Shown here one piece after another: positions 1 to 17,535 of a DNA stretch of 21,668 nt. The translations under genes were made by a program, and so were the position numbers. The first letter of the stretch is position 1. Each line of letters opens with the position of its first letter. The DNA lies in IMG/VR virus record IMGVR_UViG_3300005683_000050, positions 1-21,668 of that record. The stretch is one strand, 5' to 3'. The notes beneath the pieces are model-generated. The model was not told the origin of the DNA and searched no databases. It saw only the letters and a program-made list of their open reading frames with translations. This stretch comes from a virus. Taxonomy: Duplodnaviria; Heunggongvirae; Uroviricota; Caudoviricetes.

Positions 1-51
1 GGAAACCTGGGGCATCTTAATATATATAATATATATCAACGCTACGCGTTG
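1..51. repeat. 51-bp exact direct repeat, copy 1 (may extend beyond the window start)
   Basis: ggaaacctggggcatcttaatatatataatatatatcaacgctacgcgttg is identical to 17485-17535; weaker similarity (ttttcaccga) continues for ~25 nt. Confidence 0.97.
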
Positions 52-119: not shown

Positions 120-193
120 GACGACGGAACTCATTTGGTGATGGGACTCGTCTGCAAAACGAGTAAAATCGGGTTCGACTCCCGCCGTCGTCT
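120..193 (+). tRNA. tRNA-Cys (GCA), CCA not encoded
   Basis: Acceptor stem GACGACG(120-126)/CGTCGTC(186-192); anticodon arm CTCGT-ctGCAaa-ACGAG; T arm CGGG-TTCGACT-CCCG; discriminator U as expected for tRNA-Cys. Confidence 0.9.
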
Positions 194-209
194 CTCACAA
201 GGAGATATT

Positions 210-3679: not shown

Positions 3680-3713
3680 TGCTATGCCCCAATGGGTTAC
3701 TTATTTATTGGCT
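3680..3713 (-). ncRNA. candidate tigRNA-like guide unit 2 (34 nt, possibly degenerate)
   Basis: Minus strand AGCCA-ataaata-AGTAACCCA-ttggggcat-AGCA; shares an exact 14-mer with the 6605-6640 unit. Confidence 0.4.
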
Positions 3714-3746
3714 GTCACTCTGCGCTATTTGTGGGGCTATGTTTTT

Positions 3747-3884
3747 CTACTTTGCTCCGCCTGCAAGAACATTTCCGCAAGCACAACATCCTACACACAA
3801 AATGTCGCACTTCCCAGTAAGGTAGTTAAATGCAAACCATGCAAACTGAAACTTTGGTTGGTGTTTACATTCGTTGTTTTTCAT
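3747..3884 (-). CDS. small Cys-rich protein (45 aa), possible zinc ribbon
   Basis: Manual translation MKNNECKHQPKFQFAWFAFNYLTGKCDILCVGCCACGNVLAGGAK, directly downstream of a consensus promoter. Confidence 0.55.
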   Translation of the reverse strand: MKNNECKHQPKFQFAWFAFNYLTGKCDILCVGCCACGNVLAGGAK

Positions 3885-3893
3885 GTCAATTCA

Positions 3894-3922
3894 ATTATAC
3901 TGTATCCGTAGGAATTTGTCAA
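3894..3922 (-). promoter_or_regulatory. sigma70-type promoter
   Basis: TTGACA-17-TATAAT on the minus strand; the -35 contains the radical SAM TGA stop. Confidence 0.88.
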
Positions 3923-6541: not shown

Positions 6542-6570
6542 ATTTTACACTACATTTTGAATTTTGTCAA
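6542..6570 (-). promoter_or_regulatory. sigma70-type promoter, leaderless, for the FETNSSSTH/radical SAM operon
   Basis: TTGACA-17-TAAAAT, 6 nt, then ATG 6535. Confidence 0.85.
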
Positions 6571-6576
6571 GATGGG

Positions 6577-6604
6577 AAAAAACAACCATTAAGTAATGGG
6601 TTGT
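6577..6604 (-). terminator. intrinsic terminator after the 36-nt unit
   Basis: Minus strand acaacccatt-actt-aatggttgt followed by TTTTT. Confidence 0.55.
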
Positions 6605-6640
6605 CGCTGTAATACAATGGGTTACTTAAACACTACGGCA
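6605..6640 (-). ncRNA. candidate tigRNA-like guide unit 1 (36 nt)
   Basis: Minus strand TGCCG-tagtgttta-AGTAACCCA-ttgtattac-AGCG (5+9+9+9+4); TATAAT 5 nt upstream (6646-6651) and a terminator directly downstream; ~730 nt downstream of the TasA-like gene on the same strand. Confidence 0.55.
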
Positions 6641-6646
6641 ACACCA

Positions 6647-7084
6647 TTATATATCGGAATCATCGTCCTTGAATTCAATTCCCATACACTCGAACATATC
6701 GGCAATCAACGACGGGTACGCTAAAATAGCCCTATCACTCTGCCATGTTGACTCAGAATGATACACGTCTTTTTCCTCCATGAATCGGAAAAGTAAATCT
6801 GCAATCCTGCGGGCGTCCATATGGATTACAACTTTGTCGTTTTCATATCTTAGGCTAGACGACATGGAAACATTTATCACTGGAACTTGCTCTTGCGGAC
6901 TGTTGTCTGGAAACGACTCGTCTCGATAAAATAAATAAGATACGTTCCTTGCTGGGTCATGTGACGAACCGACAAACTCCGCCGTTGACGGAAGACCGCG
7001 CGTACACGTTCCAACTATCAGATTTCCCTCAGTTACAATGTCTTTCAACAATCTTCCGCCTACCATTACTGATTTTACTCTCAA
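6647..7084 (-). CDS. hypothetical protein
   Basis: 145-aa ORF, overlap-coupled to the upstream gene. Confidence 0.7.
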   Translation of the reverse strand: MRVKSVMVGGRLLKDIVTEGNLIVGTCTRGLPSTAEFVGSSHDPARNVSYLFYRDESFPDNSPQEQVPVINVSMSSSLRYENDKVVIHMDARRIADLLFRFMEEKDVYHSESTWQSDRAILAYPSLIADMFECMGIEFKDDDSDI

Positions 7085-7377
7085 TGTGGAAACTCTCCAT
7101 TCAGGATACCTCTATCTGTCAATTCATCAACAACGGTTTTAATCTCGACGCCAGACATTTCTGTTCCGCCAATAAGGTTGTACAGCATTTTCCACAAAAA
7201 CTCTATCAACTCAATATCGCTCATTTTGTTTTTTGTGGATATTGCGTCTGTATCTCCAGTGAAATTGTTTCCCGACTCTAGAATCTCACGTTTCCTCTTG
7301 TTTGTGTTATATATTTCTTTCTGAATGTAATCGTCGTATAGGTCGGCAATTTCCGATTCTGTCAAAGTGTCGTTCAT
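7081..7377 (-). CDS. hypothetical protein
   Basis: SD GGAGG; ATGA overlap with the TasA-like gene. Confidence 0.7.
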   Translation of the reverse strand: MNDTLTESEIADLYDDYIQKEIYNTNKRKREILESGNNFTGDTDAISTKNKMSDIELIEFLWKMLYNLIGGTEMSGVEIKTVVDELTDRGILNGEFPH

Positions 7378-8186
7378 CTCACCCTCCCAGCGATTTTTTT
7401 CTTTGTTCTATTGTCTGTCCATCCAAAATCTTGCGGATTATAAATGTGGATATGCCCATGCAACTCGGCATACGTTTTTGTTACTGGCAAGGACTCCATC
7501 TCTCTCCACACCGCCCACAGGTGTTGTAGAAAGATTTTGTTCATCTTACGCATTGCCGCAATAGAGGCATGTCCGCGTGTCCACCCGCGACTTAGATATT
7601 CCTCTTTCGACTCGTCATATATTTTGCGATACGGAGAATTCGACTTTATAAAGCTTTGTCCAACATTGTACATCACAGATTTTAATTCTGGATTAAATGG
7701 AATAACCCATCCGTACATTTTCCTGTCCCTGACCTTAACCAAGTGCCAGTCTGGGAGCGGGTTCACTTCAGAAAAAACCTTTTGTCTTTCTGAGTTCCAC
7801 CTGTACCCATTACGCGGCGACACCACCACCCCATCAGCGTCAGCCCAATAGTCGTACAGTCCAATACCAGCGTATCTCCACATCTTCGATACGGTTGTGC
7901 ATTCTTGTATGTCTATCTCTGCTACGATGCGAGCCGCAAGCATAGCTCCGACACCTTTTATGGATAATAGTCTATTAACAATCGGAATGCCAATCGCAAT
8001 CTCGATTATCTCTGCGCTGATTTCGTCCTCATTGTCTCCGAAAACCCTAGCCCACTTTTCAACTGTTGCCGCAGAGATGGAGTCCATCTCATCAGAGTGC
8101 GAAGAACGGTTGTCCATTGCAATCCTATACTTTTGCGTCATTTGGCGCATACGTATAAGTGCTTTGAGTGCTTGCATTTGATTCAT
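7374..8186 (-). CDS. tasA: IS110/Nop-fold RNA-binding protein without a nuclease domain (TIGR-Tas TasA-like)
   Basis: Helical N-terminus, LLSIKGVG..LAARIVAEIDI....VSKMWRYAG (IS110 C-terminal/Nop-like), FNPELK, H...AAMRKM.KIFL.HLW..WR..E.LP; no DEDD RuvC domain and no IS110 catalytic SG loop after YAG. Confidence 0.7.
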   Translation of the reverse strand: MNQMQALKALIRMRQMTQKYRIAMDNRSSHSDEMDSISAATVEKWARVFGDNEDEISAEIIEIAIGIPIVNRLLSIKGVGAMLAARIVAEIDIQECTTVSKMWRYAGIGLYDYWADADGVVVSPRNGYRWNSERQKVFSEVNPLPDWHLVKVRDRKMYGWVIPFNPELKSVMYNVGQSFIKSNSPYRKIYDESKEEYLSRGWTRGHASIAAMRKMNKIFLQHLWAVWREMESLPVTKTYAELHGHIHIYNPQDFGWTDNRTKKKIAGRVR

Positions 8187-8545
8187 GCTATTTTAATCCA
8201 CTTGGGCGAATATGTCGCGTTCAGTATCATGTACAACCCATCATCACATGATTGATAAAATGTCTTTTGGCCATTAAAAACTTCATTGACATATGTAGCG
8301 ATGTTTTCCATGTTGTTTGTAGCCGAAAGTCCATGATTGTCAACGTCGTCTGTCACTAGAACCGCAACTCCGCCAATCCCAGAAAGTATAATGGCATAAT
8401 ATATTCCGCCATTAACCGAAAATCTTAGAAGTACTTTGGTTGACCCTGATATACGAGCATGAGAAAGCAACACGTCTTCGTGCTTCTTTCTCATGCCGCG
8501 CGGGTCTGTGAAATTTAATTTTACTGGAGTAGTTTTTTCTTGCAT
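8183..8545 (-). CDS. hypothetical protein
   Basis: 120-aa ORF, ATGA-coupled to the TasA-like gene. Confidence 0.65.
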   Translation of the reverse strand: MQEKTTPVKLNFTDPRGMRKKHEDVLLSHARISGSTKVLLRFSVNGGIYYAIILSGIGGVAVLVTDDVDNHGLSATNNMENIATYVNEVFNGQKTFYQSCDDGLYMILNATYSPKWIKIA

Positions 8546-8814
8546 TCTTTAATGTGCCAGCAATTTTCTCGAATTTCTTTGGCAGAGTCTTTGGTGTGTT
8601 CAAAGTGTGGACATTCGCAACTCCACTCTTTTCCATCAAACGAAACAACGTATTGCATTCCGAGATTCGTATGGGAGTTAACAGTCCATGTCTGTTGTCG
8701 TGTGGTATCGAATACAATCCCTACTTCTTCGATATTAGAAATATCAACAACAGTGCCATGTGGCACTAGAAATGTAGTCCCGTTAACTGAAATCTTGACT
8801 TTAGCTGTATTCAT
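8521..8814 (-). CDS. SWIM-type zinc finger protein
   Basis: YVV......WSCECP...CWHI (CxC...CxH); SD AGGAG before ATG 8814. Confidence 0.75.
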   Translation of the reverse strand: MNTAKVKISVNGTTFLVPHGTVVDISNIEEVGIVFDTTRQQTWTVNSHTNLGMQYVVSFDGKEWSCECPHFEHTKDSAKEIRENCWHIKECKKKLLQ

Positions 8815-9022
8815 ATGCTCTCCTGACAAACTCCCTCCATACATTGTCTTTTATCACAAGGTCTCCCGTCATGGGGTCAACCTCATCGTTCCAAGATTCC
8901 CCGTCTTGAAGTACTGGTCTCACGCCGAACTGTATAGAGTCTATGTACGCAAAAGCCAGACGCGGTATGTGGGGGGGAAACCTTTGTGGTGCAACAATCT
9001 TTTTCTTTTTTCGCCTAGCCAT
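8801..9022 (-). CDS. small basic hypothetical protein
   Basis: Begins MARRKKKK; fills the operon gap with short overlaps. Confidence 0.55.
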   Translation of the reverse strand: MARRKKKKIVAPQRFPPHIPRLAFAYIDSIQFGVRPVLQDGESWNDEVDPMTGDLVIKDNVWREFVRRAYEYS

Positions 9023-9224: not shown

Positions 9225-9253
9225 ATTGTATTACAAAAATCAGCCTTTGTCAA
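9225..9253 (-). promoter_or_regulatory. sigma70-type promoter for the operon containing the TasA-like gene
   Basis: TTGACA-17-TACAAT. Confidence 0.85.
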
Positions 9254-11114
9254 CCCGTTGAATTGTCATGTCGAGATATTGTGTAGACAAGTCAATTCCT
9301 ATATATTTTCTGCCAAGTCTGCGAGAAACAACAGCAGTTGTACCACTTCCGTTAAATGGGTCTAAAACTGTATCTCCAATATAGCAGTATAGTTTAATTG
9401 CTCGGCGCGGCAACTCTTCTGGAAATGGAGCTGGATGCCCCTTGTATCTGCCAGATGGCATAACCCATACGTTGCGCGTCATCTTCTTCATAAACTCTTC
9501 TTTTTCAAGGTCGGTCTCCCCTTTCCATAACAATTTCGGAGACCCTTTGTGCGCGACAACAATAAACTCAGACAAAGAGCGACAAGACGGATTGCTTGGT
9601 GATAACCATGAGTTTCCACACCAAGTAAATTTCCCGTTACGCTCAACATATAGCGTCTTGTTCGGAACAGACACACAATACACCATCCCGTCATAATGGG
9701 ATTTATTCACCATGCTACTTTCTATCCAGTGTGAGCTCGTGCGGTGTAGGTGTATAAGATATACAGTCAGATTGCCGTTAAATGGCTTCCCGTTGTATAT
9801 ACGAGACTTGGATTTCCTTTCTTCCAACCTGAAACCAAATCCACTCATGCGGAACAGATTCAACATTCCGTCCCTAAGAGACTTAGACGCGGTAACGTAA
9901 TGCATCCAATTTCCATTTGGTAGGACACATCCATCGCCAAGCATTATCCATTCCATGAATATCTCACGCTGGCGGTAAGATAAACCAAGTACAAAGTCTG
10001 GGAACACCCTTTCGTTTTTGCTACCAAACTGCCTCATGTAGCTAGCCAATTGTTTTGAAGAAGTAACGAATTCCCCCTTTGACTGTTTATATCTGAATTC
10101 AAACGGAAGTCGGTCTAGTAGTTTCTTAACGGAATCAAGCGTCCTATCCTTAGATTGGTATATTGACACATTATAAGAGCCATGCTCTTCCGAGTAATGT
10201 ACATTGCCATCTGTTAGGAATATGCCAAGAAAAGCCAGCCAGTCGTCCATTTCTATCTTTATTTCTGACTGCGCCGACACAATAGACTTAGAAGTGCTTT
10301 TCCCGTAATCAACTATTGGCAGGGTAAAGTAACGAACCTCGTCGCCATCCATATTTTTACCAACAGAGTGAGGAATTGCAATACCATTCCAATCTATCTC
10401 TCCTGCGGACTCAACCCAGATATTCCCTTTTCCGTCTGTGCGCGCCATGTTGTGGTCTGGTGTTACGCATATATCAACGCGTTTGTTTCTTATGTGCAAC
10501 ATGTTTCCGCGAAATGGTTTTTCTATATAATCAAACGCCTTTTGGTATTCCACATTACCGCTAGGAGATAACGTCGCAAACAGGTCTCTCTCTGTAATAT
10601 CCCTGAAGTACTTTAGACCATCAAGCGTTAGCACCCTAGTTTTATCGTCGTAACATCCCCACGCCGTATTTCCCATCGAGAAATTCTCTTCGGAGTCAAC
10701 GGCATCGTCCGCATTGGATTTTACCCACGTAATTACTTCGCGCATGGTAAATCCAGCATCCACAATGCAGTTAATCGCATATGGTAAGAATGGAATATAC
10801 GCGTCGCCCTTCTTTTTGTTTCTGCCGTTTCCAGTGTTTGGAACATTCAGAACGATTCTGCCGCTTGGCGCAAGGACTCTATACGCCTCCCTTAACCATT
10901 TTGATGTAAACGCCCAGTACTCCTCTTGGTTCATATCGTCATTGTATCCGTCATACTCTACTCCGACATTATACGGAGGGGATGTTACGATAAGTTGTAT
11001 AGATTCATCTGGGATAAGGCTTAGATTTTTTGCGCTCCCTTTATATAGGGATAATCCATCTATTGCGTAGTGTTCTACCATTCCATCCGATTGATTATAG
11101 TTTTCAGGCATCAT
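9240..11114 (-). CDS. N4-C/N6-A DNA methyltransferase (beta class) containing an intein
   Basis: TSPPY, HPAPFP and VLDPFNGSGTT motifs separated by a 348-aa insertion. Confidence 0.92.
   Translation of the reverse strand: MMPENYNQSDGMVEHYAIDGLSLYKGSAKNLSLIPDESIQLIVTSPPYNVGVEYDGYNDDMNQEEYWAFTSKWLREAYRVLAPSGRIVLNVPNTGNGRNKKKGDAYIPFLPYAINCIVDAGFTMREVITWVKSNADDAVDSEENFSMGNTAWGCYDDKTRVLTLDGLKYFRDITERDLFATLSPSGNVEYQKAFDYIEKPFRGNMLHIRNKRVDICVTPDHNMARTDGKGNIWVESAGEIDWNGIAIPHSVGKNMDGDEVRYFTLPIVDYGKSTSKSIVSAQSEIKIEMDDWLAFLGIFLTDGNVHYSEEHGSYNVSIYQSKDRTLDSVKKLLDRLPFEFRYKQSKGEFVTSSKQLASYMRQFGSKNERVFPDFVLGLSYRQREIFMEWIMLGDGCVLPNGNWMHYVTASKSLRDGMLNLFRMSGFGFRLEERKSKSRIYNGKPFNGNLTVYLIHLHRTSSHWIESSMVNKSHYDGMVYCVSVPNKTLYVERNGKFTWCGNSWLSPSNPSCRSLSEFIVVAHKGSPKLLWKGETDLEKEEFMKKMTRNVWVMPSGRYKGHPAPFPEELPRRAIKLYCYIGDTVLDPFNGSGTTAVVSRRLGRKYIGIDLSTQYLDMTIQRVDKG
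9612..10655 (-). mobile_element. intein with LAGLIDADG homing endonuclease
   Basis: Starts CYDDKTRVLT (Cys154); block B VTPDHNM; LAGLIDADG-like LGIFLTDG and WIMLGDG; ends VYCVSVP...VERNGKFTWCGN followed by +1 Ser. Confidence 0.9.
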
Positions 11115-17484: not shown

Positions 17485-17535
17485 GGAAACCTGGGGCATC
17501 TTAATATATATAATATATATCAACGCTACGCGTTG
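17485..17535. repeat. 51-bp exact direct repeat, copy 2
   Basis: Identical to 1-51; contains an AT-only run and the caacgc-tac-gcgttg hairpin. Confidence 0.97.

What the first reader, a model, noticed from the sequence alone, without database searches (positions are those of the whole stretch)
6577..8186. Nuclease-less TasA-like protein with a stand-alone, separately transcribed 36-nt guide-like unit
Seen: ORF 7374-8186 has the IS110-type C-terminal (Nop-like) motifs but no RuvC or HNH domain and no catalytic SG loop. It is ATGA-coupled inside a phage operon, so it does not look like an inserted IS. At the end of that operon the minus strand reads TATAAT, 5 nt, then TGCCG-N9-AGTAACCCA-N9-AGCG (exactly 36 nt), then a hairpin and T-run. 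Known: TIGR-Tas systems use Nop-domain proteins and 36-nt guides with two ~9-nt spacers between edge and loop repeats, and TasA lacks a nuclease. Inference: this is a TIGR-Tas variant whose guides are single mini-genes rather than a tandem array, with AG where I recall UG at the box positions. It may act as an RNA-guided DNA binder or repressor. The -35 for the guide promoter is poor.
Basis: partly seen in the sequence, partly recalled or inferred. Interest (0 to 1): 0.9.

Follow-up and report, generated by a model that had tools for sequence, protein, structure and literature searches.

The report
Single-guide TIGR-TasA system in a phage
This phage gene encodes a nuclease-free RNA-guided DNA-binding protein (TasA), but where relatives have an array of guide RNAs this phage has one guide, kept at the same spot in related phages, which may explain some "arrayless" systems and suggests one fixed target.

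Summary
ORF 7374-8186(-) is a true Tas protein. It scores 147.8 bits on NCBIfam TIGR_Tas_endo (cut-off 100). Its closest solved structures are TasH and TasR, not IS110. It has no nuclease domain, and it keeps the Tyr/His pair that processes guide RNA.

The 36-nt stretch 6640-6605(-) is a canonical tigRNA unit of this clade (half-edge, spacer, loop AGTAACCC, spacer, half-edge AGCG). Models built only from arrays in other phages rank it first in the complete 149.7-kb genome (Infernal E=0.0015 genome-wide). It is the genome's only clear unit. Nearly all of the 160 relatives fetched carry multi-unit, 36-nt-period arrays.

The two closest lineages (47-55% identical TasA) have the same gene order and also one unit. 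Their spacer B differs from the window's at 2 of 10 positions. None of 1,155 array units comes that close.

"AG" at the box D position is normal for this clade, not a peculiarity. Separate transcription is unproven. No full target was found. Spacer B exactly matches the -10 region of the operon's own promoter, but the relatives do not repeat this.

Verdict: a new variant of a known kind. This scan has already seen lone TIGR units in other phages.

The parts
7374..8186 (-). tasA: 270-aa Tas protein with an N-terminal helical hairpin (putative coiled-coil dimerisation domain), a Nop domain with a beta-rich insert, and no nuclease domain. Y239 and H245 align with the SpTasH processing residues Y289 and H296.
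   Evidence: NCBIfam NF052498 scores 147.8 bits against a cut-off of 100. Sequence search of the PDB gives TasR 9mty E=1.2e-17 and TasH E=1.8e-10. The AF2 model has pLDDT 93.4. Foldseek places TasH and TasR on top and IS621 far behind. The residue mapping uses PMC13421893.
6605..6640 (-). Single 36-nt tigRNA unit: 5' half-edge TGCCG (6640-6636), spacer A (6635-6627), loop repeat AGTAACCCA (6626-6618), spacer B (6617-6609), 3' half-edge AGCG (6608-6605).
   Evidence: Sequence read. Top site in the genome by weight matrix. Infernal E=2.1e-4 in the window and 0.0015 genome-wide, matching model positions 6-41, which is the processed unit. The loop is identical to the array loop of L013.
6577..6604 (-). 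Intrinsic terminator: a 9-bp bulged hairpin with a tetraloop (6604-6582), then a T-run (6581-6577). It closes the tasA operon directly after the truncated 3' edge.
   Evidence: RNA fold. Published arrays end in a truncated 3' edge repeat followed by a terminator (PMC12045711).
6595..6648 (-). Possible closing helix around the unit. The 5' arm (6648-6637) pairs with the 3' arm (6608-6595), about 12 bp with a bulge. The 3' arm overlaps the terminator's 5' arm, so the two structures exclude each other.
   Evidence: This helix is the minimum-energy fold when the terminator's 3' arm is left out (-15.7 kcal/mol). In the full-length fold the terminator wins. The orthologous units have closing helices of unrelated sequence: 15 bp perfect in L009 and weak in L178.
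6646..6651 (-). TATAAT hexamer 5 nt upstream of the unit. It overlaps the stop codon of ORF 6647-7084. It is a candidate -10 for an independent guide transcript.
   Evidence: the 9-mer ATATATAAT is shared with L178 at the equivalent place. No -35 element and no wider promoter class were found.
9225..9253 (-). Promoter of the tasA operon (TTGACA-17-TACAAT). Its last 10 nt (9234-9225) are exactly complementary to the 10 nt 6618-6609 (spacer B plus the preceding A).
   Evidence: The adjacent spacer-A half matches only 5 of 10 (6 with one wobble pair).
6647..7377 (-). Two small ORFs (98 and 145 aa) lying between tasA and the unit. They are translationally coupled, have no family match, and are absent from the syntenic loci of the relatives.
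8183..8844 (-). Two small ORFs upstream of tasA that are conserved neighbours in L178 and/or L009. Their function is unknown; one has a weak SWIM-finger hint.
3680..3713 (-). Second, non-canonical guide-like site with AGCC, the same loop repeat (an exact 14-mer shared with the main unit) and a 3' AGC. Spacer A is 2 nt short. It lies in the leader between a 45-aa Cys-rich small ORF and ATG 3660, downstream of the perfect promoter 3922-3894.
   Evidence: Infernal gives 9.5 bits, E=0.037, matching model positions 12-39 only.
6542..6570 (-). Promoter of the next operon (radical SAM / methyltransferase). Its -10 region shares 8 of 10 nt with spacer A in the sense orientation.

Best explanation
This is a TIGR-Tas system of the dual-repeat TasA type in which the guide array has shrunk to one unit.

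Shown:
- The protein is a Tas Nop-domain protein without a nuclease, and it keeps the Tyr/His processing pair.
- The 36-nt element has the exact geometry and motifs of array units of related phages.
- It is the only such unit in a genome rated 100% complete.
- The two closest lineages have the same gene order and also a single unit, with spacer B conserved.

Inferred mechanism:
- The unit is transcribed as the 3' end of the tasA operon, from promoter 9253-9225 to terminator 6604-6577. Alternatively it is transcribed from a weak promoter of its own at TATAAT 6651-6646.
- A TasA dimer binds the box C/D motifs of the two half-edges and the loop, and trims the RNA to about 36 nt with Y239/H245.
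- The complex then pairs spacer A with one DNA strand and spacer B with the other strand of an adjacent site of about 18-20 bp.
- Having no nuclease, it sits on that site and blocks transcription. One conserved guide implies one fixed, conserved target, so this looks like a dedicated regulator rather than a diversifying repertoire.

The target itself is not identified.
For: Protein:
- NCBIfam TIGR_Tas_endo scores 147.8 bits (cut-off 100), against 18.5 bits for IS110 (cut-off 140).
- PDB sequence hits are TasR 9mty (1.2e-17) and TasH (1.8e-10).
- Fold search gives TasH E=4e-12 with TM 0.71 and TasR next. IS621 reaches only E~1e-5 and TM 0.52.
- Y239 and H245 align to SpTasH Y289 and H296.

Guide:
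- The site is the top hit in the genome with two models built from foreign arrays.
- Its loop is identical to the array loop of L013.
- Its 5' and 3' truncated edges followed by a terminator match what is described for array ends.

Single state:
- No array is found by TRF, weight matrix, periodic k-mer chains, a generic box C/D scan or Infernal.
- 73 of 80 metagenome relatives gave at least three weight-matrix hits, and most of the 80 IMG/VR relatives show 36-nt-period arrays. The complete relative G001 has 16 units.

Conservation:
- P0001, P0017 and P0018 form one clade (support 97/83 and 100/98).
- Gene order is shared: DNA methylase, small ORFs, tasA, unit, methyltransferase operon.
- L009 has one unit at E=0.0066.
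- Spacer B of L009 and of L178 each differs from the window's at 2 of 10 positions. The closest of 1,155 array units differs at 3.

Repressor role of TasA: bioRxiv 10.64898/2026.09.09.750476.
Against:
- No DNA site matches both spacers. There is none in the phage and none in IMG/VR. The four scattered hits in GTDB genomes equal the chance expectation.
- The 5' half-edge reads TGCC, not the usual AGCC.
- In the closest relative (L178) the unit scores weakly (E=0.92), and its TasA has lost the Gly-His motif. The system may therefore be decaying in part of the clade.
- The closing helix of the window unit competes with the terminator and is not the full-length minimum-energy fold.
- Only three lineages are known, two of them from short or partly fetched contigs.
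Confidence: 0.68

Rival explanations
1. The unit is an inert relic of a lost array. TasA in this phage is guide-less, decaying, or uses some other RNA.
For: Only one unit is left. The 5' half-edge is degenerate. No target was found. The closest relative has a weak unit and a TasA lacking the Gly-His motif.
Against: - A relic should not persist at the same position in three lineages whose TasA proteins are only 47-55% identical.
- It should not keep spacer B within 2 mismatches when none of 1,155 array units comes that close.
- tasA is intact, translationally coupled to its neighbours, and keeps Y239/H245.
Confidence: 0.1
2. The unit acts in cis on RNA rather than as a DNA guide. It would be a TasA binding and cleavage site in the operon transcript. 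It would separate or stabilise the tasA message from the downstream operon, or switch between the closing helix and the terminator (attenuation).
For: - The 3' arm of the closing helix is also the 5' arm of the terminator.
- In L178 and L009 the unit lies directly between tasA and the next genes with no terminator.
- The unit's position before the methyltransferase / radical-SAM operon is conserved.
Against: - No cis-regulatory role has been described for any Tas protein.
- Conservation is concentrated in spacer B, which is not needed for protein binding in solved complexes (PMC12045711).
- The window's downstream operon has its own strong promoter.
Confidence: 0.12
3. The 36-nt match is a coincidence. 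The stretch is only the 3' untranslated region and terminator of the operon.
For: The informative part of the motif is short (about 16 fixed positions). One shuffled genome of 20 reached 20.6 bits against the observed 21.0.
Against: - It is the top hit genome-wide with two independent models.
- It lies on the tasA strand, 730 nt downstream, in one of the few intergenic gaps.
- Its loop is identical to that of the nearest array-bearing relative.
- Orthologous units sit at the syntenic position.
Confidence: 0.05

Closest known systems
Dual-repeat TIGR-TasA systems, e.g. FpTasA of Flavonifractor plautii (Faure et al. 2025, Science, PMC12045711)
   Same: A nuclease-free Nop-domain Tas protein. A 36-nt unit built as half-edge, ~9-nt spacer, loop repeat, ~9-nt spacer, half-edge, with box C (CC-purine) and box D motifs. 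Truncated edges followed by a terminator at the end. The Tyr/His processing pair is present.
   Different: One unit instead of the usual 5-15 or more. Two unrelated ORFs separate tasA from the unit. Spacer B is conserved across diverged lineages instead of varying. A closing helix may flank the unit.
Stem-loop TIGR systems: PlTasA, MbTasA, CsTasR (PMC12045711; bioRxiv 10.64898/2026.09.09.750476)
   Same: Few units at flexible positions. A palindromic helix closes each dual-spacer unit (perfect 15 bp in the ortholog L009). TasA acts as a repressor.
   Different: Published stem-loop clades lack the Tyr/His processing loop, but P0001 and P0018 keep it. The half-edges here are still recognisable dual-repeat edges. 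The locus looks like an intermediate between the two architectures.
'Arrayless' Tas branch in dense viral genomes (Xu et al. 2026 preprint, Discussion)
   Same: A tas gene packed into a phage operon with no room for an array and no array detected by an array finder.
   Different: That branch consists of compact TasR proteins without the coiled coil. This one is a TasA of the dual-repeat clade, and a guide is in fact present, as a single unit. TIGRFinder's dual-repeat seed step needs at least four intervals and would miss it.
IS110/IS621 bridge-RNA recombinases
   Same: A related Nop-like RNA-binding domain (Pfam Transposase_20) and a single structured guide per element.
   Different: No DEDD/RuvC domain. 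NCBIfam IS110 scores 18.5 bits against a cut-off of 140. The fold match is much weaker than to Tas. There is no bridge RNA with two loops, and the gene does not look like an inserted element.

Membership tests
TIGR-Tas (Tas protein) | Curated family model matched above its cut-off | tested here: met
   NF052498 TIGR_Tas_endo (equivalog) scores 147.8 bits against a cut-off of 100, E=4.1e-43.
TIGR-Tas (Tas protein) | Nop-domain fold closest to solved Tas structures | tested here: met
   AF2 model pLDDT 93.4. Foldseek ranks 1-11 are TasH and TasR (E down to 4e-12, TM 0.57-0.78). IS621 follows at E~1e-5. Sequence hits agree.
TIGR-Tas, TasA subtype | No HNH or RuvC nuclease domain | tested here: met
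   The 270 aa consist of N-terminal helices plus the Nop domain. Alignments begin at TasR residue 126 and TasH residue 79. The upstream ORF has no nuclease match.
TIGR-Tas, dual-repeat class | Tyr/His pre-tigRNA processing pair on the C-terminal loop | tested here: met
   Y239 and H245 align with SpTasH Y289 and H296 (residues from PMC13421893). H245 is nearly invariant in alignment A1. Catalysis was not tested.
TIGR-Tas | Guide unit of ~36 nt with two ~9-nt spacers flanked by box C/D motifs | tested here: met
TIGR-Tas | Units arranged in a tandem array (typically 5-15) | tested here: not met
   One canonical unit in a genome rated 100% complete. Relatives have arrays.
TIGR-Tas | Unit expressed, processed to ~36 nt and bound by Tas | not testable with these tools
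TIGR-Tas | DNA target pairing with both spacers on opposite strands | tested here: inconclusive
   No exact 20-nt site in the phage or in IMG/VR. Four scattered GTDB hits equal the chance expectation. The best own-genome site is promoter 9253-9225, with spacer B 10/10 and spacer A 5/10.
Stem-loop TIGR class | Palindromic helix closing each unit; no Tyr/His loop | tested here: inconclusive
   A helix is present but competes with the terminator in the window. It is 15 bp and perfect in L009. The Tyr/His pair is present, which contradicts the class definition.
IS110 family transposase | N-terminal DEDD/RuvC-like domain plus a family model above its cut-off | tested here: not met
   NF033542 scores 18.5 bits against a cut-off of 140. 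No PF01548 match. Rfam finds no RNA family match at this locus.

The most novel reading that the evidence does not exclude
The single conserved guide turns TasA into a dedicated phage transcription factor that reads promoters.

- Spacer B, conserved in three lineages, pairs with the non-template strand of an extended -10 element. It is exactly complementary to the -10 region of the tasA operon's own promoter (9234-9225).
- With G-U wobble it can pair with the -10 regions of 17 of the phage's TTGACA-type promoters.
- The lineage-specific spacer A would then select which promoter is shut off.
- The result would be RNA-guided negative autoregulation or a temporal switch.
Probability: 0.15. Interest if true: 0.85.

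Novelty: new variant of a known kind. Interest (0 to 1): 0.62.

Why it matters
Two questions about TIGR-Tas are stated as open in the 2026 preprint. First, what are the natural targets and biological roles? Second, why do about two-thirds of tas loci (20,096 loci against 6,685 arrays) have no detected array?

This locus bears on both. A dual-repeat-clade TasA can run on a single guide that array finders would miss. That guide is kept at the same genomic place, with one spacer conserved, across diverged phages. A single conserved guide shrinks the target search to one site. It makes the natural function testable with one RNA, one protein and one reporter. [quoted passage not shown]

Tried and rejected
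- Single-sequence AF2 model: useless (pLDDT 38). It was redone with an alignment.
- megablast of the locus against isolated phages: no match.
- Close-relative scan of IMG/VR with P0001 alone: nothing.
- Strict DNA pattern for the conserved loop plus spacer B in IMG/VR: 0 hits.
- Full 20-nt target with a 0-2 nt gap: 0 hits in IMG/VR. The 4 hits in GTDB genomes, spread over unrelated taxa, are about the number expected by chance, so they are not used.
- Own-genome target scan: no site with fewer than 5 mismatches apart from the guide's own DNA.
- Testing the promoter-targeting idea in the relatives: neither L178 nor L009 has a local promoter that pairs with its own spacer B or with the composite target. 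That reading is therefore kept only as the novel case.
- A shared AATTCA at about -35 upstream of the TATAAT in the window and L178: rejected as a promoter class, since it occurs only twice in the genome.
- The guide's own DNA as a self-target (17/20 with a 1-nt gap): not conserved in the relatives, so treated as chance.
- Periodic repeats at 65370-65520 and 67689-67786 of the genome: iteron-like or GC-rich repeats, not guides.
- A third loop-like site at 125951(+): lacks the edges and matches the chance rate.

Full report
**Setting.** The window is the first 21,668 nt of a 149,668-nt virus record rated 100% complete. Genes around the finding lie on the minus strand in tightly coupled operons. 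These are driven by a family of about 56 strong sigma-70-type promoters, TTGACAAA...GTGATAYAAT.

**Observation.** ORF 7374-8186(-) encodes 270 aa and overlaps both neighbours by ATGA. Two small ORFs without family matches follow it. A bulged hairpin (6604-6582) and a T-run come next, and then the promoter of the following operon. The description is accurate.

**The protein.**
- Pfam gives only a partial Transposase_20 match. PHROGs labels the family 'transposase'.
- NCBIfam's TIGR_Tas_endo equivalog scores 147.8 bits against a cut-off of 100. The IS110 model scores 18.5 bits against 140.
- The best sequence matches in the PDB are TasR 9mty (1.2e-17) and TasH (1.8e-10). Both alignments begin after those proteins' nuclease domains.
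- With a 30-sequence alignment, AlphaFold gives pLDDT 93.4. Foldseek then lists eleven TasH or TasR chains first (E down to 4e-12, TM up to 0.78), and IS621/ISCro4 only at E~1e-5 and TM~0.5.
- Y239 and H245 align with Y289 and H296 of SpTasH. Those are the residues shown to cut pre-tigRNA (PMC13421893; alignments). The 2026 preprint says this pair marks dual-repeat systems and is absent from stem-loop clades.
- P0001 is therefore a TasA of the dual-repeat, self-processing type.

**The guide.**
- The nearest full-length relatives were fetched with their flanks.
- L002 carries about 31 units directly after tasA: edge AGCGAGCC, 10 nt, an 8-nt loop of the form AG-N4-CC, 10 nt, with a 36-nt period.
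- Most of the 80 IMG/VR relatives show 36-nt-period arrays, usually with the same edge. Of the 80 metagenome relatives, 73 gave at least three weight-matrix hits.
- 'AG' at box D is therefore the clade norm.
- A weight matrix from 22 L002 units, restricted to the processed unit, was scanned over both strands of the whole genome. It puts 6640-6605(-) first with 21.0 bits; the next site has 12.5. Shuffled-genome maxima averaged 13.9 +/- 2.7.
- An Infernal sequence-only model from 40 units of five other phages gives E=2.1e-4 in the window and 0.0015 genome-wide, where it is the only match. The match covers model positions 6-41. That is a unit with both edges truncated, as published for the first and last units of arrays, which end in a terminator.
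- The loop AGTAACCC is identical to the array loop of L013, the closest IMG/VR relative.

**Only one unit.**
- TRF, the full-unit matrix, a periodic k-mer chain search that recovers 61 chains in L002, a generic box C/D plus flanking-stem scan (15 matches against 19.6 expected) and Infernal all find no array and no further canonical unit.
- The complete relative G001 has 16 units around its tas gene.
- A second site at 3713-3680(-) shares an exact 14-mer that includes the loop, and it has AGCC and AGC edges. Its spacer A is two nt short, and it matches the model only from position 12 (E=0.037). It lies in a transcribed leader downstream of a perfect promoter. I regard it as probably related but of doubtful function.

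**Comparative evidence.**
- In a maximum-likelihood tree P0001 groups with P0017 (support 100/98) and then with P0018 (97/83). The sister P0021 has a divergent multi-unit array.
- The three single-unit loci share gene order: DNA methylase, small ORFs, tasA, unit, D12-like methyltransferase operon.
- L009 has one unit (E=0.0066) enclosed by a perfect 15-bp inverted repeat. L178/L006 has one weaker unit, and its TasA lacks the Gly-His motif.
- Loop and spacer B are conserved. The spacer B of each relative differs from the window's at 2 of 10 positions. The closest of 1,155 distinct array units from relatives differs at 3. Spacer A differs freely.
- All three units can be closed by flanking helices of unrelated sequence. 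In the window this helix (about 12 bp with a bulge) is the best fold only before the terminator's 3' arm exists, because the two structures share one arm.

**Target.**
- The published cleavage geometry (5' to the nucleotide paired with the fifth spacer base, leaving 8-nt 3' overhangs) gives the predicted site. It is the spacer A sequence followed by the reverse complement of spacer B.
- No such site exists in the phage (best is 5 mismatches) or in IMG/VR. Four scattered hits in GTDB genomes match the chance expectation.
- One match is notable. The 10 nt 6618-6609 (spacer B plus the preceding A) are exactly complementary to the -10 region of promoter 9253-9225, which drives the tasA operon itself.
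- With G-U wobble, spacer B can pair with 35 genomic sites (24.6 +/- 5.6 in shuffles), and 17 of them are -10 regions of TTGACA promoters.
- The spacer A half matches poorly there, and the relatives show no equivalent. I therefore keep promoter targeting as a low-probability reading, not as the explanation.

**Mechanism proposed.** See the best explanation. The identities of the protein and the RNA unit are shown. Expression, processing, loading and DNA binding are inferred from the family.

**Known or new.**
- The components are known.
- The configuration is not described in the papers I could read. Those papers give arrays of 'most often 5 to 15' units. TIGRFinder's dual-repeat seed step needs at least four intervals. 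Arrayless tas loci are listed as an open question.
- Earlier notes of this scan report lone or scattered TIGR units in other phages, but alongside main arrays or many guides. Here the single unit is the system's only canonical guide and is evolutionarily conserved.
- I class it as a new variant of a known kind.

Noticed in passing
window 9240-11114 (-): The N6/N4 DNA methylase is split by an insertion of about 345 aa carrying a LAGLIDADG domain, which looks like an intein. The orthologs in L178 and L009 align to both halves and lack the insertion.
   Followed up: partly
window 1-51 and 17485-17535: An exact 51-nt direct repeat spaced 17,484 nt apart. The first copy lies at the record start, just upstream of a tRNA.
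   Followed up: no
window 120-194 (+): A tRNA gene. ARAGORN calls it tRNA-Cys (GCA), while Rfam's best clan member is the tRNA-Sec model (54.6 bits).
   Followed up: no
window 3746-3922 (-): A perfect consensus promoter (TTGACA-17-TATAAT, 3922-3894) followed by a 45-aa cysteine-rich small ORF (3883-3746), directly after the radical-SAM gene. It may be a peptide substrate.
   Followed up: no
whole genome G000, e.g. window 13475-13447, 17255-17227, 9253-9225 (-): About 56 near-consensus promoters share an extended form, TTGACAAA ... GTGATAYAAT. This is an unusually uniform promoter family for a 150-kb phage.
   Followed up: partly
G000 65370-65520 (outside the window): Four copies of GTTACATAAGAAT-like 13-mers at a spacing of about 42-44 nt in a non-coding stretch between promoters. 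They look like iterons or operators.
   Followed up: no
L002 4537-5916; L177 1119-2771: A TROVE/Ro60-like gene lies next to or near tasA in two unrelated relatives. In L002 it is preceded by a gene-free stretch of about 940 nt.
   Followed up: no
L009 6952-6975: A perfect 8-bp inverted repeat (ACTGTCTA / TAGACAGT) straddles the stop codon just upstream of the stem-closed guide unit. It may be an operator.
   Followed up: no
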